NCBI GenBank assembly: GCA_021413945.1 | Contig: JAIOPK010000006.1 | Span: forward strand, 390,327 to 454,326 | Direction: 5' to 3' | Length of the DNA: 64,000 bases | From: Candidatus Uhrbacteria bacterium | Lineage (GTDB): Bacteria; Patescibacteriota; Patescibacteriia; 2-12-FULL-60-25 | Shown here: positions 26,212 to 64,000 of the stretch, piece after piece | Layout: every line of letters begins with the position of its first letter | Numbering within the stretch: the stretch's first letter is position 1 | Notes under the pieces: model-generated | The model's database searches: none | Seen by the model: only the letters and a program-made list of their open reading frames with translations | What the model was told of the DNA's origin: nothing | Translations under genes and position numbers: made by a program

Positions 26212-26357
26212 GTCGTGTGGGAAGCGAAATCGTTTTCAAGGTTAGCATAAATCGATGACGCTAGCAATGCGCGGAACGACGTGAATAGCTGGGGGTAAGT
26301 ACGCCCAGACGCTCCATGTTCTTAGCTAACTGCTCTATGTTATACTGTCTCCGAGTT

Positions 26358-29318
26358 ATGCCTTTGCGTTCATTCGCGAGTTGGAAGAACCTGTTTGTTG
26401 TTTGTGCTGTCGCACTTTTTTCGACTGTTGGTATTCTAAACTTTGGACAAACGACATATGCTGCAGGCCCAAATGAATCCTGCAACCAGGATACGGATTG
26501 TACTGCTGGCGCGTGTGCAGTGGCAGGAGATTGTGAATGTACCGGAGAGATAGAGACGCTAGGTACTCCTGGTCTGTGCCAGGGCACAACTGCGGGGATT
26601 GCGCGAGCAAGGGCAGCAGACAGTGCAGCGGCAGCAGCATCCGCCGACTCTTGCGGACCGCCTGGAAATTTCGGCACCTATATCTGTCAGGGCGTCACGA
26701 TGGTGTTAGGTTGGATCGTTACACTGCTTGGTTGGATCGTTTCATTGATTCTGACCGTCCTTCTAGCGTTTGCAAAATATAATAGCTTTTCAAGTGCGGC
26801 ACCTGTGGAAGTTGGTTGGCCGATCGTGAGAGACATTTGCAACATGTTTTTCATTGTCATTCTTCTTATTTCTGCATTTTCGACCATCATCGACTACGGA
26901 GGAGGAGAACTTCATTACACCAAGGTTTTACCGCGACTACTCATGATGGCGGTACTGATCAATTTTTCCAAAACGTTGATTCAGCTTCTGATCGACTTCT
27001 CGCAGGTTGTGATGCTGACGTTCGTGAATGCCTTTGCTTCCGCGGCTCAGGGAAATTTTGTGAATGCTCTTGGCTTGGCGCGGATCATGCAATTGTCAGC
27101 CGATGCGCCTGCGGGTGCTGCTAACGGGACAAACATTATCATCGCCTACATGCTGGCGATTTTTATGCTGGGTATCATGATTTCCGTCGTTACGATCATG
27201 ACAGGATTCCTTATTTTCCGCATTGTCGGTTTGTGGATCGCGTTAATCATGTCGCCATTGGCATTTTTTGTAACGGCGATTCCCGGCAAGCTATCTAAAC
27301 ATTTAGGAAGTATCGCGAACGACTATTGGTCGCGATTAGGAACATTGCTGACGGGAGGTCCGGTGATGGCATTCTTTTTGTGGCTGACGCTGGCGGTCGT
27401 GCAGGGAGCTAATTCGGGCGGTGGCGGGCTTGCCTCAGCATTATCTTTTGATGTTCCAGAAGGAGCGGCAACTTTTATTACTTCTATCGGTGACGCGCAG
27501 TCCATCGCTTCCTTCATCGTCGGCATCACTTTGCTCATGATGGGGTTGGATCAGGCGGTGAAGTCGGCGAGTGCCATTAGTAAGACGCTTGGAGGTTTTG
27601 CGGAGAAGGCAAAGGGAGCAGGTATGTCGCTTGGACGATTGGGTGCTACGGCTCCGTTTTTGGCTGCGGGGTATGGGGCGGCTTATGGAGCAAGAGGCGC
27701 GGCCCGCTATGCCGACAAGCGTTTGGATCTCACGCGTAAGGTTTCTGCAGCGGGTTTGCAGACATTGGGTCGAGTTCCCGTTGTCGGTTCAGCTTTGCGT
27801 CCGACCTTAGCCAAAGGTTTGACAATGCGGCGTGATGAAGCGGCAAAGCAGGCGAAGGAAGCGGCAGACTTGATGGCGGGTGTCGGCAAAACTGGTACCG
27901 ATGCGGAGCTACGAATGGTTGGCAAGACGTTTGGTATGGGTACGAGCGCGTTCCGTACACTTGGAGCTCGCGCAGGATCGGCGAAGGTTGCCGAAATTCT
28001 TTCTTCCGATGATTTGCGTGACCGTGAAGCAAAACGTAACAAGACCGCATTTATCGATGATATAAAAAAGAGGAATCCCGGGATCTCAGAAGACGAGGCC
28101 AAGGCGGGCTCGGACGTCATGTCTAAGGAGGCGGCAAATCGCGAGCAAGCTAAGTATGTTCGCTCACAATTAGCTCTTGCAAAAACAGCGGGAGACACAG
28201 GTAAGGTAGAGTCACTTGAGAAGTATATGAAGACCAATCCGCATTTGGCGGATCCGGAAGCACCGTATATTGGCAAGGATGGTAAGCCTGTCGAAGGAAA
28301 AAATGGTAGAGACAAATATATCGAGGACTTGGCTACAGATCCGGATCTGTACAAGGAAGTCGGCAAGCTTGATGCGATGAATGGCGAGGTTGCCACGGGC
28401 TTCATGTTGAAGCATGGCTGGGCGGAGGTTGATAAAGAACGCAAAGATGCCGATGGCAATGTTATTAAGTACAAATCGCTGGAGCAGAAGGACAAGGCGG
28501 CATGGGATCGTGTTAAAGGATCAGTGCAAAAGTCAGGTAACAAGGATCTGCTCAATGGCTTGAACGCCCATGAGGGGCTCGTTACGGAATCGCCGACGAC
28601 GGATTATCGCGATCTGAAGAAGGTACAGCATCGCTTCAATGCGGGAGATGGCATGACTCATGCATATAGCGTCGATCCCGCGGCCGTTCCGGGGAAGGGC
28701 GGGGCGCGTATCCGTAATGAAGGCGAGCGTGAATCGATTTCTAAGCTTCAGGAAGCCGCCAAACAGGGTGCGGGCTATACGGTTCCTGTGGAAGCAGCAC
28801 GAACCGCCTTGCGTTCCGGAGCTTCGTTCGCGGAGGTTGCAAAGATTACGGAAAGCGGCAAGGACAACGTTTCATCCATTGTCGATTCTGTCGTGAAAGA
28901 ATCAGTCGGCCAGGCTGCGCAGACAACCAACGAAGCAGACTTTAACGATGAGATCAAGAACATGAACAGTGTTTTCCGACAGATCGACGCGCAAGGCGTT
29001 ACGTCGGACCACCAGATAAAAATTGTTCACGCGGCTCTTACCGGTGGAATCGGTCAACTACTATCAAAGGAAAATTATCCCAGGATTGCAAGCGACCAGC
29101 GTGCGCATGTCGTTAAATTACTCGCCGTTGCAAAACAGCGCGTTAATGATCTGAAACAGCAAGACATAAGCAAGATGAAAGCGGAGGATCAAAAGATTGC
29201 CAAGGAGATTATCGACTCGATGGCCGCGCTTGAACGCGAGGCCGCCAAGAACAAGGACAGCAATATTCCTAGCGGAGCTGTCAAACAGATTTTGAGAAAG
29301 GACGTAGTTGTCGAGTAA
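26358..29318 (+). CDS. large polytopic membrane protein, VirB6/TrbL-like candidate of the T4SS-like cluster
   Basis: Signal peptide, a Cys-rich module (CNQDTDCTAGACAVAGDCECTG), about 7-8 TM helices and a ~550-aa hydrophilic Lys/Asp-rich C-terminal region. Its position is upstream of the PrgI/VirB4 genes. The VirB6-like call rests on topology and context only. Confidence 0.5.
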   Translation: MPLRSFASWKNLFVVCAVALFSTVGILNFGQTTYAAGPNESCNQDTDCTAGACAVAGDCECTGEIETLGTPGLCQGTTAGIARARAADSAAAAASADSCGPPGNFGTYICQGVTMVLGWIVTLLGWIVSLILTVLLAFAKYNSFSSAAPVEVGWPIVRDICNMFFIVILLISAFSTIIDYGGGELHYTKVLPRLLMMAVLINFSKTLIQLLIDFSQVVMLTFVNAFASAAQGNFVNALGLARIMQLSADAPAGAANGTNIIIAYMLAIFMLGIMISVVTIMTGFLIFRIVGLWIALIMSPLAFFVTAIPGKLSKHLGSIANDYWSRLGTLLTGGPVMAFFLWLTLAVVQGANSGGGGLASALSFDVPEGAATFITSIGDAQSIASFIVGITLLMMGLDQAVKSASAISKTLGGFAEKAKGAGMSLGRLGATAPFLAAGYGAAYGARGAARYADKRLDLTRKVSAAGLQTLGRVPVVGSALRPTLAKGLTMRRDEAAKQAKEAADLMAGVGKTGTDAELRMVGKTFGMGTSAFRTLGARAGSAKVAEILSSDDLRDREAKRNKTAFIDDIKKRNPGISEDEAKAGSDVMSKEAANREQAKYVRSQLALAKTAGDTGKVESLEKYMKTNPHLADPEAPYIGKDGKPVEGKNGRDKYIEDLATDPDLYKEVGKLDAMNGEVATGFMLKHGWAEVDKERKDADGNVIKYKSLEQKDKAAWDRVKGSVQKSGNKDLLNGLNAHEGLVTESPTTDYRDLKKVQHRFNAGDGMTHAYSVDPAAVPGKGGARIRNEGERESISKLQEAAKQGAGYTVPVEAARTALRSGASFAEVAKITESGKDNVSSIVDSVVKESVGQAAQTTNEADFNDEIKNMNSVFRQIDAQGVTSDHQIKIVHAALTGGIGQLLSKENYPRIASDQRAHVVKLLAVAKQRVNDLKQQDISKMKAEDQKIAKEIIDSMAALEREAAKNKDSNIPSGAVKQILRKDVVVE

Positions 29319-36486: not shown

Positions 36487-36575
36487 TGGCGGAGAGGGTG
36501 AGATTCGAACTCACGGTACCTTTTGGATACGGCAGATTTCAAGTCTGCTGCTTTAGACCACTCAGCCACCTCTCC
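36487..36575 (-). tRNA. tRNA-Ser(UGA)
   Basis: The reverse complement gives GGAGAGG acceptor, a CTTGAAA anticodon loop, a long variable arm, GTGAGTTCGAATCTCAC T-arm and CCA. Confidence 0.85.
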
Positions 36576-36683
36576 GTGTATCTGGCGGGGATAAAATACG
36601 TCATTTGAGGCCTTTTGTCGAGTAGACTGATCTACTTGCCCCAAAGGCTTAATATAGGTAGAGTAAAGCGGCTTTTAGCCTAA

Positions 36684-36772
36684 GGAGAGGTACCCAAGAG
36701 GCTGAAGGGGGGAGATTGCTAATCTCCTAGGGTCGAAAGGCCGCGAGGGTTCGAATCCCTCCCTCTCCGCCA
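36684..36772 (+). tRNA. tRNA-Ser(GCU)
   Basis: GGAGAGG acceptor, GGAGA-TTGCTAA-TCTCC anticodon arm, a long variable arm, GAGGGTTCGAATCCCTC T-arm and CCA. Confidence 0.85.
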
Positions 36773-36803: not shown

Positions 36804-36889
36804 GATATCTTCCGTGACCCTTGACGTGATTTTATAAACCGTTATAGTGGGTCAAGCTTAGTTGTTATTCTTTTATTAGGCCGTCATGT

Positions 36890-46888: not shown

Positions 46889-49168
46889 CTAGAACAAGTC
46901 GAGCCAACCGCCGATCACATCCGATAGCCCAAAGGTCGCACTACTTATAGCGGCGATGATGGCGGCGAGCAAAATAACCGGACCCAACATGGTCATCATG
47001 GCGCTTAGGCACATTGCAAGATCGAGGCAGGCGATCGCTGAACATTCGTATGGAAATCCGGCTTGTGGGAAAAACGGCAGATCTTTTTTGAAGAACGTCA
47101 GAACCAAGCGACCATTCAAATGAGCGATCGTCATGAGGATACCGATCACATCAAATGCGCCGTGCGCGGTATCGAATGCGTCAATAAGGTTGGAGATGGT
47201 TTTCTTTGCGGCGCGTATCTTCTCCATCTGGCTCTCCGATTGTCCGGCCTCGCTTGTGGCAGCCTTCTGCTGACCTTGTCGCTGCACCGCTTGCGCCGTC
47301 GCTTGTTGTAAGGCCGATGCACGCGCGAGCTCTTGCGGCGTCGGACCGGTCGGCGCCTGATCTTGATTCTGGCCCGATACCTGGTCGGATCCTGGGCGAC
47401 CAGCCATTTCCGGAGGACGTTGCCCGGACTGCATTTGGCCTTCAGCACTGCCGCCGTGAATACGCTTCATTTCCGCGCGACCCGCTTCTTCTTTGGCACC
47501 GTAGATATCTGCAGGCTCCGGTTCTTCATCGCCGGCGCCGGCGGCATAGGTTTGCGGTTTACGTTCCGGAAGATCGAGCGGTCCCGAGTAACCGCCTTGT
47601 CCGCCCTCTGTCGCAAAAGCATCTTCATACGAGTCCCGTTCCATCGTGTCTTCCGATCCCGCGCCGGTGTAGCCGTTTCGAGCTCCCCGATCGTAAGACT
47701 GAGCGGCGCCAAGTTCGACGGCGCGCTGAGCTTGGCCGCCGATGGACGAGAGACTGCCGCCAAGCGGACGAATCGGTTTTGGCGTACGAACGGACGGGCT
47801 CGCCGTTGCGGAGGCTCTACGCGAGGGGATGCCGGGTGCGTAGGCACGAGGGGCGGCGGTTGACGTTGGTCTCGGCAGAGCCGCGGCGGCCGAAGCTACC
47901 TCTCTCTGCGCTGATGTCGGAGCGGCGATCGAAGGCAACAACTTTTGTACTGCCGCGACTTTGTCGTCGGGAACAACTCCGCTTGCGTCAGGCTCGAGCC
48001 GCTGCACCGCTTGGACGATTTGATCGGCTTTATTATCTTCATTGATTCGCGCGACCTGTAAGTCCGTCTGCTGATGAAGCAGAGAGTCGCGGTCGGCTTG
48101 CGACTGGACGATTTGTTGTTTCAATTGCGACGCTTGCGCGCTATTCCCGCCGGCAGATGCGGTACGAGAGCGCTGCTGTAAATCGTTGATTCGATTTGAT
48201 ACCTCGGAAATCTGGCCGGATAATTGCTGGATCTGACCCTCTCGTGCGGATGCGGAAGCTCCGTAGGCCGCGAGAACATTTTGGGCCGCGGCAATGATGG
48301 CAGCCGCGCCCGTGTCGGAGGCGGGAATGGCTGCGGCGACGGACGCAACAGCGGCGATAGCACTTTGCGGTGTTGTGGCACCGGCGCTAGCCGCGCGTTC
48401 CGACTGTAACTCGATACGTGTTTCACGAATGGATGCAGATGCGGGGCTCGTCGATACCGATGCAGATGCTGATGTCGATGTCGAAGCGGAAGCCGACGTC
48501 GTCGCTTTCAAAGGCGCGGTGATCTCCGGATTTGACGGTTGAATCGAGGTGCCGCTCACCTCGACTTGGCGCACGGCCTTTCCGGAAGCGTCGTCGGAGA
48601 AATCGACTTTCGTGCCTTGATCTCGTACAACGCGCGACGATTGTTTAGATGTTTTTGTCGATCGAGCGGTTGGGAGTGGTGCGCTCGACGAGACTGTTTG
48701 CGTACCGCGGAGCATTTCCCCGGACTTCATCCATCGGCGACCGGCGCCATCGTTCACGAGTACTTCATCGTTCTGCGCATCGTAACCAATGACTTGGGCG
48801 GTTTTACCTTCGAGGGAAACATTTTTTCCAAAAAAGCCACGGACGGCGCCGGAAAGATTCTTTTTTGTTGTTCTTCCGGTGGCCTTGTCGCTTTCTTTTT
48901 GCGCCTCGATGATCGTTTTGTATTGCTCGTAGGGGATTTGGATGTTTTCGACGGAATCACCGGAACGACGAACTGCACGGACGGTATCGCGCAGACTGTC
49001 GTAACCGACAATGGTGACATTGCGCGTCTCTTTTGGGCCAACGGTTAAAAACGTCCCAAAGGAGACGTCTTTACCGGAATCGTCGGCGGCCGCGGAATCG
49101 TCGCTTTGCGGCGCTTCTTGAGCCGGCTCCTCCTCCGGAAGCGGTAGTACTTCTGCAGCATCCGCCAT
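46889..49168 (-). CDS. large hypothetical protein with low-complexity Ala/Ser/Gln regions and a C-terminal membrane domain
   Basis: 759-aa ORF. It has two N-terminal repeats sharing a (V/I)(I/V)GYD(S/A) motif, long Ala/Ser-rich and coiled-coil stretches, and C-terminal TM helices containing Cys. No family recognised. Confidence 0.55.
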   Translation of the reverse strand: MADAAEVLPLPEEEPAQEAPQSDDSAAADDSGKDVSFGTFLTVGPKETRNVTIVGYDSLRDTVRAVRRSGDSVENIQIPYEQYKTIIEAQKESDKATGRTTKKNLSGAVRGFFGKNVSLEGKTAQVIGYDAQNDEVLVNDGAGRRWMKSGEMLRGTQTVSSSAPLPTARSTKTSKQSSRVVRDQGTKVDFSDDASGKAVRQVEVSGTSIQPSNPEITAPLKATTSASASTSTSASASVSTSPASASIRETRIELQSERAASAGATTPQSAIAAVASVAAAIPASDTGAAAIIAAAQNVLAAYGASASAREGQIQQLSGQISEVSNRINDLQQRSRTASAGGNSAQASQLKQQIVQSQADRDSLLHQQTDLQVARINEDNKADQIVQAVQRLEPDASGVVPDDKVAAVQKLLPSIAAPTSAQREVASAAAALPRPTSTAAPRAYAPGIPSRRASATASPSVRTPKPIRPLGGSLSSIGGQAQRAVELGAAQSYDRGARNGYTGAGSEDTMERDSYEDAFATEGGQGGYSGPLDLPERKPQTYAAGAGDEEPEPADIYGAKEEAGRAEMKRIHGGSAEGQMQSGQRPPEMAGRPGSDQVSGQNQDQAPTGPTPQELARASALQQATAQAVQRQGQQKAATSEAGQSESQMEKIRAAKKTISNLIDAFDTAHGAFDVIGILMTIAHLNGRLVLTFFKKDLPFFPQAGFPYECSAIACLDLAMCLSAMMTMLGPVILLAAIIAAISSATFGLSDVIGGWLDLF

Positions 49169-60897: not shown

Positions 60898-60923
60898 GTC
60901 GGGTCGTGCTATACTTGTTGTAT

Positions 60924-61265
60924 ATGTTTCTTACAACATCCTCCGATCTGATCCTACTTGTCGGATCGATCTGTTTATTGCTCGTTACCGGCTTTACTTG
61001 CTGGCTTTTGTATGAGGCTGCGAGATTACTGCATCAGACAAATCAATTAGTCGAGGAGACACGCGAGAAAATTAGTGCGGTCGAGCTACTCGTGAAGACG
61101 GTGGGGGAGAAGATCATGAACTTGTCGCAGTATGCGGGAATTTTTGCGGAAGGCGGCAAGAAACTGTTGGGGTATTTTGAGCATAAAAATGATGACGATG
61201 AGAAGCCGATGAAGAGGAAGAAGGGGAAGGAGCCGACTCTGGACGAGATTGAAGAAGGGGAGTAA
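60924..61265 (+). CDS. small hypothetical membrane protein with an acidic/basic tail
   Basis: One TM helix (LILLVGSICLLLVTGFTCWLL), then a helical segment and a KKGKEPTLDEIEEGE tail. Start is ATG 60924, or possibly GTG 60906. Confidence 0.45.
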   Translation: MFLTTSSDLILLVGSICLLLVTGFTCWLLYEAARLLHQTNQLVEETREKISAVELLVKTVGEKIMNLSQYAGIFAEGGKKLLGYFEHKNDDDEKPMKRKKGKEPTLDEIEEGE

Positions 61266-61344
61266 GAGAGAAGCGCTCCTGTCCGGTCATGTTAAGCCAC
61301 GCGATGCATTGTTCACTTGAGCTCCCCAGACTCATCCCAGCTAC

Positions 61345-63033
61345 CGAGCCCCGCCGATTCGAAAGAATCGGCGGGGCTGTTCTATTGACAGATTACAAAA
61401 AATACCGTTGGATGTGGGTATTCCGCCATGCATCGCGTCCCTGTGTCCAGCCACCTGCTGTATCGTGACCAGTCCTGCCCTCCCGAGCCCTCCGACCACA
61501 AATCGGAGGGCTGCTCTATTCTTCCTGAGCTTGCCGAAGGATTGACAAAGTTGTTATTTTAATATCTACTAGGTTTTACATTTAGCGCTACGCGGCGCAG
61601 CGTGCCGTCCAGCATCCTATCCTATCGTGGAGCGGAGCGTCCTTACCTCTCGAGCCCCGGCATCGCAAGATGACCGGGGCTGTTCTATTGACAAACATGG
61701 TCATTTCATCCATTGTCGTTGTCGAGTTGCCCCGTCATGCAACGTACTCAGTAGTTACGAGTCGAGTCGCGCAGCCCACTGTCCTCCCGAGCCCTCCGAC
61801 CTAAAATTCGGAGGGCTGTTCTATTCCGGGATTGACACAACCGATGAATGGTCCTAAGTTGATGTCTTCCGCGGACCACGCATACGCGTTGCCACGACCT
61901 GTAATGTTCGGTCCAGTTCCGTCATCTCAGCTATCGAGCCCTCCGACCACAAGTCGGAGGGCTGTTCTATTTGTTGACAATGACGTAATATAATGTTTAA
62001 ATATTTACTCGTGCACCCTATTGCTTTGTTTTGTTCAGCACTCCCAAGTGTTGCGCCCCGTCCTCACGAGCCCCGTCGATTCGCAAGAGTCGGCGGGGCT
62101 GTTCTATTGACAAATAATGAAATTCGATTACTGTCGCTAGGTTGGCGTCAACCTCGGCATTGTGGCCTGGTCCCTTCTGTCGCATCCTCGTCCTGCCTGC
62201 CGTGTCCAGATCCCATCTACCGAGCCCCGGCATCGCAAGATGACCGGGGCTGTTCTATTGACAAAAATATATACAATGTATAAGGATAAGATCCTCGACC
62301 TTGCGTATTGTACTGCAATTCTTTCCATCGTGATTCTTCCTGCCGAGCCCTCCGACCCAAAAAGTCGGAGGGCTGTTCTATTGACGAAGGAGGGGATTTG
62401 TACAATATTCAAATACGCCCTTGGGTCACGCAACGCCAAGTGTCGCACCGTCTTGCGATCCTTCCTACCGAGCCCCGCCGATTCTCACGACTCGGCGGGG
62501 CTGTTTCATTGACAAATATCACTTTTTCTATATCCTTGCCCAAGTACAGCCGTGCTACGCCCCGTACAGTTATGTAGTCCCCCTCTACCGAGCCCCGTTC
62601 ATCTGAAAGGATGACCGGGGCTGTTCTATTGACAAAACCAAAATTCTTGGCTAAGCAGATGATGCTGTAACGCGGTGCTTCGCGTCCTGGACAGCGGCGC
62701 TCTTATGCTCCCCGCCGAGCCCCGTCATTCCGAAAGGAGTGGCGGGGCTGTTCTATTGACATTTGAATATTTCATCTGTAGCTTGGCAACCTAGTGATGC
62801 CACGCGTCGTTCGGCTCTGCCAAGCTCCCCGATGCGCACCTCCGCCACCAGAACTCACCCGTCCTATCGAGCCCTCCGACCAAAAATTGGAGGGCTGTTC
62901 TATTGACAAAATATTATTTCTTGCTAGTCTCAACTGACTCCTGCAATGCTAAGTGGTGCAAACTTGAGCTGTGTAGGCTAACCTCGCGAGCCCCGTCATT
63001 CCGAAAAGGAGTGGCGGGGCTGTTCTATTGACA
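61345..63033 (+). repeat. array of 13 tandem hairpin-terminator + TTGACA modules separating 74-108 nt unique segments (putative small-RNA gene array)
   Basis: The module is CGAGCCC-[stem-loop]-GGGCTGTTCTATTGACA. CGAGCCC starts at 61345, 61484, 61651, 61788, 61935, 62067, 62221, 62344, 62469, 62589, 62716, 62868 and 62987. TTGACA (TTGACG in copy 8) starts at 61385, 61542, 61688, 61832, 61974, 62107, 62258, 62381, 62509, 62629, 62756, 62903 and 63028. There are two stem classes, GAGCCCCG... (8 copies) and GAGCCCTCCGA... (5 copies), with compensatory or wobble changes. No credible ORF is present. Confidence 0.8.
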
Positions 63034-63117
63034 GTAAGCTTTTTTTTGCGCAAGTTAGCAATGGCTGTTGAGTAGTCAACCGCTTCGTACAGCGCACACG
63101 CGCAGCCCACTCTTTCG

Positions 63118-63150
63118 GGCCCCGTGATCGATTTGATCGATTGCGGGGCC
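63118..63150 (+). terminator. distinct intrinsic terminator closing the last array unit
   Basis: GGCCCCG-TG-ATCGAT-TTG-ATCGAT-TG-CGGGGCC followed by GTTTAATTATT. Confidence 0.65.
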
Positions 63151-63165
63151 GTTTAATTATTAGGC

Positions 63166-63194
63166 TTGACAAAGCCAATAATTTATGGTTATTT
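63166..63194 (+). promoter_or_regulatory. candidate promoter of the helicase gene
   Basis: TTGACA (63166-63171), a 17-nt spacer, then TTATTT (63189-63194). The downstream RBS-like AAAGGAAA precedes the ATG at 63242. Confidence 0.4.
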
Positions 63195-63241
63195 GGCGGG
63201 TCCGTCCGACTTTGGGCGGGGCACATTTGAAAGGAAACGAG

Positions 63242-64000
63242 ATGGAAAACCAGACTCTGGAAGCCAGCTTTCCGCATGACGAGATCCGCGGCGTCCAGGG
63301 GAAGGCCCTGGAGTTCATCGCCAAGCATCCGGAAGGATGCATCCTAGAGATTCCAACGGGAACGGGGAAGACGGCCATCGCTTGGGCTGCGCTCCGTGCC
63401 GCCGAGGCCGAGGGCCAGAAGGGCCTCGTCTACGTCACGCCGACCAAGATGCAGGCCGAGCAGATCATGCAGGGGTACGCCAAGCGCGGCAACAAGGTCG
63501 CGCTCACCGTGCTCGGACGAGCCGAGTACGAGTGCCTCTACTACACCGATCTCGGTCAGGAAGTGAACGCGGAGCAGTCACCCTGCTACGTGCTCGACTG
63601 CGATCATCGCGTCGATCAGGAGACAGGGGAGACCGAGGATCCGGAAGAGGATCCCTGCCCCTACTACCTCGCCAAGTTCAAGGCCAAGCAGTCGCTCATG
63701 AGCGGCGGGATCGTGGTCACAACCACGGCCTTCTACATCATGAACCGCATGCTGGTCTCCGGCTGGCGCGACGCGGAAGTCTCTCTGGTAGTGATCGACG
63801 AGGCGCATCGCATGGCGCCGATCGCTCGGAGCGTGTTCGACCAGACCGTGACGGACTGGCATCTGAAGCGCATCGCCGAGATCGTCCGCGACATCAGCGA
63901 GAAGGACGCGGACGCGCTCCTCGAGTTCTACAAGGCGTTCATGCGCATGGTCCTCCCCAAGGCATCGCAGGAGGCCAAGCTCCTCAAGGACGAGGAGCTG
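63242..64000 (+). CDS. XPD/Rad3/DinG-family Fe-S helicase, N-terminal 253 codons (3' end outside window)
   Basis: I translated this myself, as it is not in the ORF track and is open to the window end. MENQTLEASFPHDEIRGVQGKALEF...EIPTGTGKTA (Walker A)...four Cys spaced as in the XPD Fe-S domain (YECLYY, SPCYVLDC, DPCPYY)...VVIDEAHR (DEAH box). Codon usage is strongly GC3-rich. Confidence 0.75.
   Translation, partial: MENQTLEASFPHDEIRGVQGKALEFIAKHPEGCILEIPTGTGKTAIAWAALRAAEAEGQKGLVYVTPTKMQAEQIMQGYAKRGNKVALTVLGRAEYECLYYTDLGQEVNAEQSPCYVLDCDHRVDQETGETEDPEEDPCPYYLAKFKAKQSLMSGGIVVTTTAFYIMNRMLVSGWRDAEVSLVVIDEAHRMAPIARSVFDQTVTDWHLKRIAEIVRDISEKDADALLEFYKAFMRMVLPKASQEAKLLKDEEL

What the first reader, a model, noticed from the sequence alone, without database searches (positions are those of the whole stretch)
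61345..63194. Thirteen tandem promoter / short unique RNA / terminator modules: a putative multi-copy small-RNA array
The ~1.9 kb between the small ORF ending at 61265 and the helicase ATG at 63242 has no credible ORF. The ORFs listed there merely translate the repeat in different frames.

Structure of the array:
- It is built from 13 copies of a ~45-nt module, CGAGCCC-[stem-loop]-GGGCTGTTCTATTGACA(AA), with a period of 120-157 nt.
- The flanks are conserved while the stems differ. Class A is AGCCCCGNCG..., with 8 copies and loops GAAA/GCAA. Class B is AGCCCTCCGA..., with 5 copies.
- Copy-to-copy differences are compensatory, or are G:T wobbles that only pair on the + strand. The hairpin is therefore maintained as + strand RNA.

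Why each unit looks like a transcription unit:
- The hairpin followed by TGTTCTATT looks like an intrinsic terminator.
- The perfect -35 TTGACA right after it is followed at 16-17 nt in most units by a TAnnnT/CAnnnT hexamer (TAAGTT, TACTGT, TATCCT, TAGCTT, TAGTCT, TAAGCA, CATTGT, CAAGTT).
- The first ~25 nt after TTGACA are AT-rich. The remainder is GC-richer with local hairpins, for example AGCTTGGCA/TGCCAAGCT in unit 11.
- Each unit therefore reads as promoter, then a ~60-90 nt unique RNA, then a terminator.

The unique parts:
- They share only short motifs: GTCCAG in units 1, 2, 4 and 6, and CGCGCAGCCCACT in units 3 and 13.
- Nearly all end in a pyrimidine-rich, anti-Shine-Dalgarno-like tract (CCCTCC, GTCCTCC, TCCTTCCT, CCCCCTCT) just 5' of the terminator.

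Interpretation (inference): this could be a family of trans-acting, SD-occluding sRNAs amplified to 13 copies. Alternatively it could be individually transcribed guide-like RNAs functionally linked to the downstream GC-rich helicase. I know of tandem C-rich sRNA families such as the LhrC type, but none with this copy number or module architecture.
Basis: partly seen in the sequence, partly recalled or inferred. Interest (0 to 1): 0.85.

Follow-up and report, generated by a model that had tools for sequence, protein, structure and literature searches.

The report
Array of VIPR guide-RNA genes
The 1.9-kb gene-less stretch holds 14 small guide-RNA genes of a VIPR system, a CRISPR-like RNA-guided DNA-silencing system first described in 2026 preprints, in the chromosome of a Candidatus Uhrbacteria (CPR) bacterium next to its partner helicase.

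Summary
Thirteen hairpin + TTGACA modules, plus a 14th terminator hairpin, lie at 61345-63150. All are on the + strand and none occurs elsewhere in the window.

The "unique" RNA bodies are about 12 tandem pentamers, [G/C][C/T]NNN, in register with the 3' hairpin. The in-phase frequency is 81%, against 16-40% in the other phases.

Close relatives (90-92% identical) show what lies past the window end: the XPD/DinG-like helicase is followed by a small RAMP protein. Its family matches the solved "SUSP1 Vipr protein" (PDB 36pp, E 1e-10). In all 12 loci scanned for tracts that encode a family member, including phages, pentamer tracts lie beside or near the gene.

This is VIPR (bioRxiv 10.64898/2026.04.26.720920 and .720927). 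Vipr protomers coat a roughly 100-nt vrRNA of 9-16 YNNGG repeats. The NN bases read double-stranded DNA, skipping every third base.

The Uhrbacterial version differs in four ways:
- each vrRNA has its own promoter, and a terminator serves as its tail;
- the GG of the repeat is degenerate;
- there are about 30-40 vrRNA genes per island;
- a helicase is linked, and that linkage holds across Patescibacteria.

No targets were found. Verdict: a new member of a very recently described kind.

The parts
61271..61386 (+). vrRNA gene 0. Pentamer tract 61271-61346, then tail hairpin 61347-61378 and U-rich run. It has no -35 of its own and lies just after the stop of the small ORF (61265).
   Evidence: Tract found by the window-wide periodicity scan; hairpin.
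61385..61520 (+). vrRNA gene 1. -35 TTGACA 61385-61390; about 12 in-register pentamers; tail hairpin 61486-61512 (class B).
   Evidence: 12 pentamers; 11 of 12 in phase.
61542..61689 (+). vrRNA gene 2. -35 at 61542-61547, displaced by a 23-nt insert; 13 pentamers; tail hairpin 61653-61681 (class A).
   Evidence: (12 of 12 in phase).
61688..61825 (+). vrRNA gene 3. -35 at 61688-61693; tail hairpin 61790-61817 (class B).
   Evidence: 9 of 12 in phase.
61832..61971 (+). vrRNA gene 4. -35 at 61832-61837; 14 pentamers; tail hairpin 61937-61963 (class B).
61974..62108 (+). vrRNA gene 5. -35 at 61974-61979; 12 pentamers; tail hairpin 62069-62100 (class A).
   Evidence: (12 of 12 in phase).
62107..62259 (+). 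vrRNA gene 6. -35 at 62107-62112, -10 TACTGT; 17 pentamers; tail hairpin 62223-62251 (class A).
62258..62382 (+). vrRNA gene 7. -35 at 62258-62263; 9 pentamers; tail hairpin 62346-62374 (class B).
62381..62510 (+). vrRNA gene 8. -35 TTGACG at 62381-62386; 10 pentamers; tail hairpin 62471-62502 (class A).
62509..62630 (+). vrRNA gene 9. -35 at 62509-62514, -10 TATCCT; tract shifted by one base near its 3' end; tail hairpin 62591-62622 (class A).
   Evidence: (10 of 12 in phase 4).
62629..62757 (+). vrRNA gene 10. -35 at 62629-62634; 10 pentamers; tail hairpin 62718-62749 (class A).
62756..62904 (+). vrRNA gene 11. -35 at 62756-62761, -10 TAGCTT; 15 pentamers; tail hairpin 62870-62896 (class B).
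62903..63029 (+). vrRNA gene 12. -35 at 62903-62908, -10 TAGTCT; 10 pentamers; tail hairpin 62989-63021 (class A).
63028..63160 (+). vrRNA gene 13. -35 at 63028-63033; 10 pentamers; divergent tail hairpin 63118-63150 (GGCCCCG...CGGGGCC), followed by GTTTAATTATT. This unit is absent in the 90%-identical relative L020.
63166..63194 (+). Promoter of the helicase gene: TTGACA, 17 nt, TTATTT. It is the same promoter type as in the vrRNA units.
   Evidence: It is conserved in L004 and L020.
63242..64000 (+). N-terminal 252 aa of an XPD/DinG-like Fe-S helicase, cut by the window end (606 aa in relatives). It is the predicted VIPR accessory (vap-type) gene.
   Evidence: Pfam DEAD, ResIII and DEAD_2. 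The full-length relative hits PADLOC typeIV_DinG at E 3.9e-44 and archaeal XPD in the PDB. It is linked to vipr and vrRNAs in 6 loci, including one where the helicase is only 42% identical.

Best explanation
The array is a battery of 14 vrRNA genes of a chromosomal VIPR (Viral Interference Programmable Repeat) system in a Candidatus Uhrbacteria (Patescibacteria/CPR) genome.

Inferred from sequence signals:
- Each unit is transcribed from its own sigma-70-type promoter.
- The product is a roughly 100-nt RNA: about 12 pentanucleotide repeats, an invariant last pentamer CUACC-G, a GC-rich hairpin and a U-run.
- The hairpin and U-run act both as intrinsic terminator and as the conserved 3' tail.

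Shown for phage SUSP1 and P. fulva VIPR in the preprints, and inferred here by homology:
- One Vipr protomer, a minimal RAMP related to Cas7, binds each repeat and the protomers form a helical filament.
- The filament sequesters the three constant positions. These are GGY in SUSP1 and [not G][G/C][C/T] here.
- It presents the two variable bases (NN) of each repeat.
- The NN bases pair with double-stranded DNA while skipping every third target base. This forms an R-loop triplex that blocks transcription.

Inferred from linkage only:
- In this lineage the complex works with an XPD/DinG-like helicase encoded in the same island.
- The vipr gene itself is predicted to lie just beyond the window end, by synteny with relatives that are 90-92% identical.
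- The likely role is innate, germline-encoded targeting of phages or other mobile elements.
For: Periodicity:
- Right-aligned on the hairpin, positions -6, -11 ... -61 are G or C (A in 0-2 of 76 from -56 to -6, 7 of 76 at -61). The next positions are C or T.
- The in-phase SY frequency is 720 of 888 (81%), against 16-40% in the other phases.
- Tracts have a median of 12 pentamers and start about 10 nt after the -10.
- In the whole window, tracts with at least 9 of 10 pentamers in phase occur 12 times on the + strand, all inside 61271-62997. One chance tract lies on the - strand.
- The bodies are no more structured than shuffles (mean z +0.35).

Protein partner:
- Relatives L003/L006 and L020 carry helicase, then units, then a 266-273-aa protein.
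- Its AF2 model (pLDDT 80) matches Csm3, type VII Cas7 and Cmr4, with 85 PDB hits at E<=1e-3.
- The family profile hits PDB 36pp 'SUSP1 Vipr protein' at E 1e-10.
- hhalign against the Mijalis ortholog gives probability 96.4%.
- All 39 sampled members hit phrog_4652.

Co-occurrence of tracts and protein:
- 7 of 7 IMG/VR loci.
- Citrobacter phage Mijalis, with 5 units of 12-15 GTNNG pentamers plus a pseudoknot-like tail.
- L019, with about 45 tracts, and L023.

Published definition and mechanism of VIPR.

NN hypervariability and turnover:
- Bodies are unique between genomes; only two paralogous pairs were found.
- Bodies between the helicase and vipr are not alignable between strains whose flanks are 84-91% identical, and whole units are gained or lost.

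Helicase linkage holds at 42% helicase identity in a different genomic neighbourhood.
Against: - The vipr gene is not inside the window. Its presence there is inferred from synteny.
- No transcript data exist for this organism.
- The -10 hexamers are weak by the E. coli standard.
- The constant motif departs from the published GGY. The first G is G in only 8-9% of repeats, and the second is G 52-59% and C 41-48%. Whether the NN plus 1-nt-skip rule transfers unchanged is therefore untested.
- No natural target was found in the 64-kb window.
- Six exact IMG/VR scans gave no convincing target. The single 18-base hit is within chance expectation and its flanks do not match.
- The helicase's role is inferred from linkage alone.
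Confidence: 0.85

Rival explanations
1. The RNAs are Vipr-binding scaffold RNAs without guide function. The variable bases drift neutrally and the many copies only raise dosage, for example to build filaments that act as decoys or sponges.
For: - No target was found.
- New units can arise by duplication and divergence: two paralogous pairs in L002, with Y-to-Y changes at the constrained position.
- Everything that is conserved is explained by promoter, terminator and protein-binding constraints.
Against: - In SUSP1 the NN bases were shown to set the target and to be reprogrammable.
- Bodies differ completely between strains whose flanking genes are 84-91% identical, and whole units come and go. 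That is faster than neutral drift would give.
- Tandem copies under no constraint on the NN bases would be expected to homogenise, but all 14 are different.
Confidence: 0.07
2. A degenerate or non-canonical CRISPR array of a type IV-like CRISPR-Cas system (Cas7 plus CasDinG), with promoters inside the repeats.
For: - The helicase's best defence-library hit is typeIV_DinG, at E 3.9e-44 over its full length.
- The partner protein has a Cas7/Csm3-like fold.
- The layout alternates repeat and variable segment.
Against: - The 'repeats' are not identical: 65 distinct hairpins among 76.
- The 'spacers' are 88-140 nt in the window (up to 158 nt in related loci, plus one 227-nt outlier), and each includes a promoter.
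- The bodies carry a 5-nt constant motif that captured protospacers could not have.
- No Cas1, Cas2, Cas5, Cas6 or Cas8 appears in any locus.
- TIGR03117 (Csf4) scores only E 0.11, and the PDB sequence search finds archaeal XPD, not CasDinG.
- The RAMP belongs to the Vipr family, which the preprint places outside Cas5, Cas6 and Cas7.
Confidence: 0.04
3. A family of trans-acting sRNAs that occlude Shine-Dalgarno sequences (LhrC-like), amplified to 13 copies.
For: - C/U-rich tracts such as CCCTCC and TCCTTCC lie 5' of the terminator.
- Each copy has its own promoter and terminator.
Against: - The C/U-rich tract is the periodic [C][C/T]NNN pattern of the last 2-4 pentamers plus the invariant CTACC-G.
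- It is not a free anti-SD motif in a loop.
- The same RNA architecture flanks or lies near vipr genes in phages of unrelated hosts, where the constant motif is GGY (purine-rich).
Confidence: 0.02
4. Locally amplified terminator-promoter cassettes (REP- or PeSL-like regulatory repeats) with no RNA product of their own.
For: The module is a terminator followed by a promoter, as in the PeSL cassettes of T4-type phages (own knowledge).
Against: - The module does not occur behind other genes in the window.
- The segments between modules are too short for genes.
- Those segments carry a strong strand-specific periodic constraint tied to the hairpin register.
Confidence: 0.02

Closest known systems
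Type II VIPR systems of Escherichia phage SUSP1 and a Pseudomonas fulva prophage (bioRxiv 10.64898/2026.04.26.720920; structures in 10.64898/2026.04.26.720927, PDB 36pp)
   Same: - A small single-RRM RAMP protein with the G-loop motif (G)xRPxx(GP)FGRF.
- RNAs of about 100 nt made of 9-16 pentanucleotide repeats with two hypervariable bases.
- A conserved last repeat and a structured 3' tail.
- Several vrRNA genes flanking the genes of the system.
- Roughly 12 repeats per RNA.
   Different: - It sits in a cellular chromosome between pheT and dnaE, not in a phage.
- There are 14 vrRNA genes in the window, and 30-40 per island in relatives, against about 4 in SUSP1.
- Each gene has a host sigma-70-type promoter.
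- The tail is a simple terminator hairpin with a variable upper stem, not a pseudoknot.
- The constant motif is [not G][G/C][C/T] instead of GGY.
- The G-loop reads LSYRP where SUSP1 has GDWRP, so the G1-contacting Asp is replaced by Ser.
- Some strains carry two vipr paralogs (53% identical).
- The accessory gene is a helicase, not the DNA-binding vap1.
VIPR types III-V, which the preprint says encode nucleases or helicases and are partly host-encoded
   Same: - Host-chromosome location.
- An enzymatic accessory gene.
- An alternative repeat consensus; the preprint lists NNNGG, YNNNG and NNNNG.
   Different: The type could not be assigned, because the preprint's supplementary tables are not held. 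Its main text does not mention Patescibacteria, per-unit promoters or terminator tails.
Type IV-A CRISPR-Cas (Csf complex plus CasDinG)
   Same: - An RNA-guided, nuclease-free RAMP filament paired with a DinG-family helicase.
- Interference by transcriptional repression.
   Different: - No CRISPR array, no Cas6 processing, and no Csf1, Csf3 or Cas11.
- Guides are read in a gapped 5-to-3 register rather than 6-nt segments.
- The helicase keeps four Cys of an Fe-S cluster and resembles archaeal XPD.
Tandem sRNA gene arrays with one promoter and terminator per copy, such as NsiR1 of Nostoc (12 copies) and LhrC1-5 of Listeria (own knowledge, not checked here)
   Same: Head-to-tail small-RNA genes, each with its own promoter and terminator.
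   Different: In those arrays the copies are paralogous over the whole RNA and act by contiguous base pairing. Here only the flanks and a 5-nt frame are conserved.

Membership tests
VIPR system (vrRNA array) | vrRNA repeat region: 9-16 tandem pentanucleotide repeats, YNNGG or a related consensus | tested here: met
   - The median is 12 in-register pentamers per unit, mostly 10-17.
- The in-phase constant dinucleotide is present in 81% of repeats.
- The consensus is Y-N-N-[not G]-[G/C], a 'related consensus' rather than YNNGG.
VIPR system (vrRNA array) | Invariant, structured 3' tail after the repeat tract | tested here: met
   - The tail is the invariant CT(A)CC-G, then an AGCCC...GGGCT hairpin and a U-rich run.
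- The structure is conserved with compensatory changes.
- It is a hairpin, not the pseudoknot of the SUSP1 clade.
VIPR system (vrRNA array) | Hypervariable NN positions between constant positions | tested here: met
   - Positions 3-4 of each pentamer carry about 0.05 bits.
- Nearly every triplet (61 of 64) is used.
- Bodies are unique within and between genomes.
VIPR system (vrRNA array) | Adjacent vipr gene encoding a minimal RAMP homologous to characterised Vipr | tested here: inconclusive
   - The gene is not in the window, which ends inside the helicase.
- It is present directly downstream in relatives that are 90-92% identical in the shared helicase sequence.
- Homology to SUSP1 Vipr: PDB 36pp at E 1e-10, and hhalign probability 96.4%.
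VIPR system (vrRNA array) | Expression as discrete transcripts of about 100 nt that co-purify with Vipr | not testable with these tools
   Only promoter and terminator signals are available. The predicted length from transcription start to the end of the hairpin is about 100 nt.
VIPR system (vrRNA array) | Natural targets matching the NN code with a 1-nt skip | tested here: inconclusive
   - No match above shuffles in the window.
- Of 4 IMG/VR scans under the NNx rule, 3 gave nothing and 1 gave a hit consistent with chance.
- The complete genome and co-occurring phages were not available.
VIPR system (vrRNA array) | Accessory (vap) gene acting on DNA | tested here: met
   An XPD/DinG-like helicase is linked to vipr and vrRNAs in every Uhrbacteria locus that covers the region (window, L001, L003/L006, L004, L007, L020). 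The same holds in L023, where the helicase is 42% identical.
CRISPR-Cas (type IV-like) | Array of near-identical direct repeats separated by spacers of similar size derived from foreign DNA | tested here: not met
   - There are 65 distinct hairpins among 76.
- Spacing is 119-167 nt.
- The bodies carry an internal constant motif every 5 nt.
CRISPR-Cas (type IV-like) | cas gene set (Csf1/Cas8, Csf3/Cas5, Cas6, optionally Cas1-Cas2) | tested here: not met
   There are no Pfam, PADLOC or NCBIfam hits other than the helicase. No such genes were called in L004, L007 or L019.
Anti-SD C-rich sRNA families (LhrC type) | Paralogous sRNAs with exposed C-rich (UCCC/CCUCC) motifs in loops or single-stranded regions, acting without a dedicated RAMP | tested here: not met
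   - There is no paralogy among bodies.
- The C/U richness follows the pentamer frame.
- A dedicated protein partner was identified.
Rfam families | Match to any curated covariance model | tested here: not met
   No hit reaches the gathering score, and there is nothing meaningful at E<=10 in 61200-63300. The phage vrRNA regions also give no hit.

The most novel reading that the evidence does not exclude
The Patescibacterial clade of Vipr plus XPD/DinG-like helicase may be a VIPR type or subtype not yet described.

What sets it apart:
- stand-alone promoter-vrRNA-terminator genes;
- a degenerate constant motif that co-varies with a G-loop Asp-to-Ser change;
- 30-45 guides per roughly 1-Mb genome.

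It would be a vertically inherited, core-genome, innate RNA-guided defence of CPR bacteria, which largely lack CRISPR. Its pairing of an ancestral RAMP with a DinG-family helicase could mark the evolutionary link between VIPR and type IV CRISPR-Cas.
Probability: 0.25. Interest if true: 0.75.

Novelty: new member of a known kind. Interest (0 to 1): 0.5.

Why it matters
VIPR was described only in 2026 preprints, mainly from phages of E. coli and Pseudomonas. This locus shows a large, chromosomally fixed version in an ultra-small CPR bacterium.

What is useful about it:
- In related genomes up to about 34-45 guide-RNA genes take up several kilobases.
- The guides are unusually easy to delimit, because each has its own promoter and terminator.
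- It provides natural variation in the constant repeat motif and in the protein residues that read it. That bears on the recognition code and on engineering.
- It provides a conserved helicase partner whose role is unknown.
- It bears on how CPR bacteria, which are poor in CRISPR, defend themselves.
- It bears on the proposed descent of CRISPR RAMPs from Vipr.

Tried and rejected
- **tRNA or Rfam identity of the bodies:** none.
- **Micro-ORFs:** the ORFs in the array read through the repeats in different frames.
- **Exact-protein look-ups of window genes** (small ORF, pheT): not on record.
- **Integron attC sites, iterons or a replication origin, and a sigma-factor sponge:** considered and dropped once the strand-specific 5-nt frame and the RAMP partner appeared.
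- **Self-targets in the window:** contiguous matches, matches masked to 3 of 5 positions, and NN matches with 0-3 skipped bases are no better than shuffles.
- **INPHARED phages:** no blastn match to the array, and no tblastn match with the Uhrbacterial Vipr.
- **IMG/VR exact scans of masked bodies:** 6 scans gave one hit at chance level.
- **Phage helicases next to vipr (phrog_16):** not homologs of this helicase.
- **Small DUF948-like ORF (60906-61265) and a 223-235-aa protein in L004 and L007:** no informative family. The 223-235-aa protein is absent from the window, so it was not counted as a core part.
- **Literature searches on periodicity terms and on stand-alone Cas7:** found nothing. 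The link came from the PDB sequence search.
- **VIPR type number:** could not be assigned, because the preprint's supplements are not held.
Full report
**1. Setting**

The window is a bacterial chromosome of about 53% G+C. It carries pheS, pheT, topA, clpB, rseP and six tRNAs. Named homologs of the island's proteins come from Candidatus Uhrbacteria and other Patescibacteria. The finding lies between a small DUF948-like ORF (60906-61265) downstream of pheT and an XPD/DinG-like helicase gene. That gene starts at 63242 and is cut by the window end.

**2.

- The module CGAGCCC-hairpin-GGGCTGTTCTATTGACA occurs 13 times, all on the + strand at 61345-63033, and nowhere else in 64 kb.
- A 14th hairpin (63118-63150) closes the last unit, just before the helicase promoter.
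- Terminator-like sites number 12 against 2.0 expected, all on the + strand.
- The hairpins co-vary. 97.8% of cells are paired, six pairs change on both sides, and 0 of 500 shuffles reach the score.
- Across related loci, 65 distinct hairpins keep stems of 9-15 bp with few exceptions (one 7-bp, one 25-bp) and contain 52 G:U pairs.
- The -35 is invariant. The -10 is weak by E. coli rules.
- A matrix over 74 units shows an AT-rich 17-nt spacer, TG, then TAnnnT.
- The same promoter type precedes the helicase gene and at least one ordinary gene in the window.

**3. Relatives**

Exact-module scans found a MAG (L001, L002) and a metagenome contig (L003).
- L003 is 92% identical to the window over the helicase 5' end, so it shows what lies beyond position 64000.
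- Its order is: helicase (606 aa), two units, a 266-aa protein, one unit, a 53%-identical paralog, six units, dnaE.
- L004, L007 and L020 repeat the theme. L007 has about 34 units between pheT and dnaE.
- In these relatives the U-tract after the hairpin is longer (GGGCTGTTTTATT). This supports a terminator function.

**4. The hidden feature**

Right-aligning 76 bodies on the hairpin reveals a strict 5-nt frame.
- Positions -6, -11 ... -61 are G or C. The following positions are C or T. The fifth position of each pentamer avoids G.
- The in-phase frequency is 81%, against 16-40% in the other phases.
- A unit has a median of 12 pentamers. They begin within a few nucleotides of the predicted transcription start and end in an invariant CT(A)CC-G.
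- Window-wide, such tracts occur only in the array.
- The bodies are not internally structured.
- They share no sequence between genomes.
- They are replaced or gained and lost between strains whose flanks are 84-91% identical.

**5. The protein partner**

- The 266-aa protein has no Pfam, PADLOC or NCBIfam hit.
- Its AF2 model (pLDDT 80) matches Csm3, type VII Cas7 and Cmr4.
- A profile search finds 3,210 cluster representatives.
- All 39 sampled members belong to phrog_4652.
- In all 7 IMG/VR loci, in Citrobacter phage Mijalis and in two further bacterial contigs, pentamer tracts lie beside or near the gene. The Gordonia phage Trine locus was scanned only at a lower threshold and gave no clear result.
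- In Mijalis the units have 12-15 GTNNG pentamers, a conserved last pentamer and a pseudoknot-like tail.

**6. Identification**

The family profile hits PDB 36pp, "SUSP1 Vipr protein", at E 1e-10. That hit led to two 2026 preprints on VIPR systems. They report the following:
- vrRNAs of about 100 nt are made of 9-16 YNNGG repeats plus an invariant tail.
- One Vipr protomer binds each repeat and the protomers form a helical filament.
- The filament flips out GGY and presents NN.
- NN pairs with double-stranded DNA with a one-nucleotide skip, forming an R-loop triplex.
- The result is PAM-less transcriptional silencing of competing phages.
- There are seven types and six accessory gene families, with nucleases or helicases in types III-V.
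- Alternative repeat consensus sequences exist.
- About a quarter of the systems lie in prokaryotic chromosomes.

The window array meets the RNA-side definition. The protein side is met in syntenic relatives.

**7. What is particular here**

- Each vrRNA has its own host-type promoter, and an intrinsic terminator serves as its tail. Other Patescibacterial loci (L019, L023) have tract-plus-hairpin units without the per-unit TTGACA.
- The constant motif is [not G][G/C][C/T] rather than GGY.
- In the alignment to the SUSP1-clade protein, GDWRP corresponds to LSYRP. GDWRP contains D177, W178 and R179, which read G1, G2 and Y3. So the G1-reading Asp is lost while the Y3-contacting Arg is kept.
- Phage loci with GDF or GDW mostly keep G1, although L009 does not. 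This co-variation is an inference.
- The helicase family (at least 127 clusters, 39-72% identical) is, among the members that carry a source name, Patescibacterial.
- At 42% identity and in a different neighbourhood, the helicase is again flanked by vrRNA tracts and a vipr gene. It is therefore a true accessory gene and not a chance neighbour.
- Its best defence-library match is type IV CasDinG. However, it keeps Fe-S cysteines and resembles archaeal XPD in the PDB. Any link to type IV CRISPR is only a lead.

**8. Targets**

- Contiguous, masked and NN-skip searches of the window give nothing above shuffles.
- Six exact scans of IMG/VR gave one hit. It is explainable by chance and its flanks do not extend the match.
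- The biological targets therefore remain unknown.
- The rapid turnover of bodies fits an arms-race role.

**9. Verdict**

- The finding is real and correctly delimited.
- Its preferred interpretation, anti-SD sRNAs, is wrong. Its alternative, guide-like RNAs tied to the helicase, is right.
- The system belongs to the newly described VIPR class. I rate it a new member of a known kind, with lineage-specific features worth follow-up.

Noticed in passing
L023 8745-8780: A hammerhead-ribozyme-like core (CCGATGAGTCCGAAAGGACGAAATC) sits between vrRNA tracts upstream of the helicase in a groundwater Patescibacteria contig. The preprint mentions ribozyme-interspersed vrRNA arrays.
   Followed up: no
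L019 8800-16798: A contig of unidentified taxonomy carries a 265-aa Vipr homolog directly after rpsL-rpsG-fusA. About 45 vrRNA-like tracts follow over 8 kb. The units are a tract plus a GCAG...CTGC hairpin plus UUUU, with no per-unit TTGACA and no helicase in view.
   Followed up: partly
L003 (- strand) 3950-3861; L004 2390-2488; L001 3350-3459: The vipr genes have a conserved, structured 5' leader (GTCCCNGTGAAANGGGATC, then a second hairpin containing AGGAATA) between the TTGACA promoter and the start codon. It may be an autoregulatory site.
   Followed up: no
window 61519-61541; L007 7275-7297: The same 23-nt insert (TTCTTCCTGAGCTTGCCGAAGGA) separates the terminator from the -35 in window unit 2 and in a unit of a genome whose helicase is only 76% identical. 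Related inserts (TTCCTGAACAGAGCCGGAGGA, TATATTTAAGTA) recur in other units. They could be UP elements or regulator sites.
   Followed up: no
L001, L002 (CAYGDS01 MAG): The MAG is labelled 'uncultured Gammaproteobacteria', but its island, helicase and vipr are Uhrbacteria-like (81% DNA identity to the window helicase). The label is probably wrong.
   Followed up: no
L009 7740-7810: Inside the long GCNNN tract region of a viral contig there is a fragment resembling a tRNA 3' half (GGTTCGATTCCGCC). A serine integrase lies 2.7 kb downstream. It may be an attachment-site remnant.
   Followed up: no
window 46889-49168 (-) and 26316-29318 (+): Two long ORFs (759 and 1000 aa) have no Pfam or PHROG match.
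   Followed up: no
window 36487-36772: A divergent pair of tRNA-Ser genes (tga on the - strand, gct on the + strand) lies 108 nt apart. A TTGACG-N16-TATAGT promoter follows just downstream at 36821.
   Followed up: no
L022 6535-6560 (-): This is the only IMG/VR match to a window vrRNA under the NNx rule. It covers the first nine codons of an ORF in an AT-rich viral contig. The skip base falls on codon position 1 and the flanking NN do not match, so I judged it a chance hit.
   Followed up: partly
L016 4111-4308 (Gordonia phage Trine): A 10-of-10 pentamer tract directly downstream of the vipr homolog (gene 41) lies inside the annotated 'hypothetical protein' gene 40. That gene may be a mis-called vrRNA region.
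   Followed up: no
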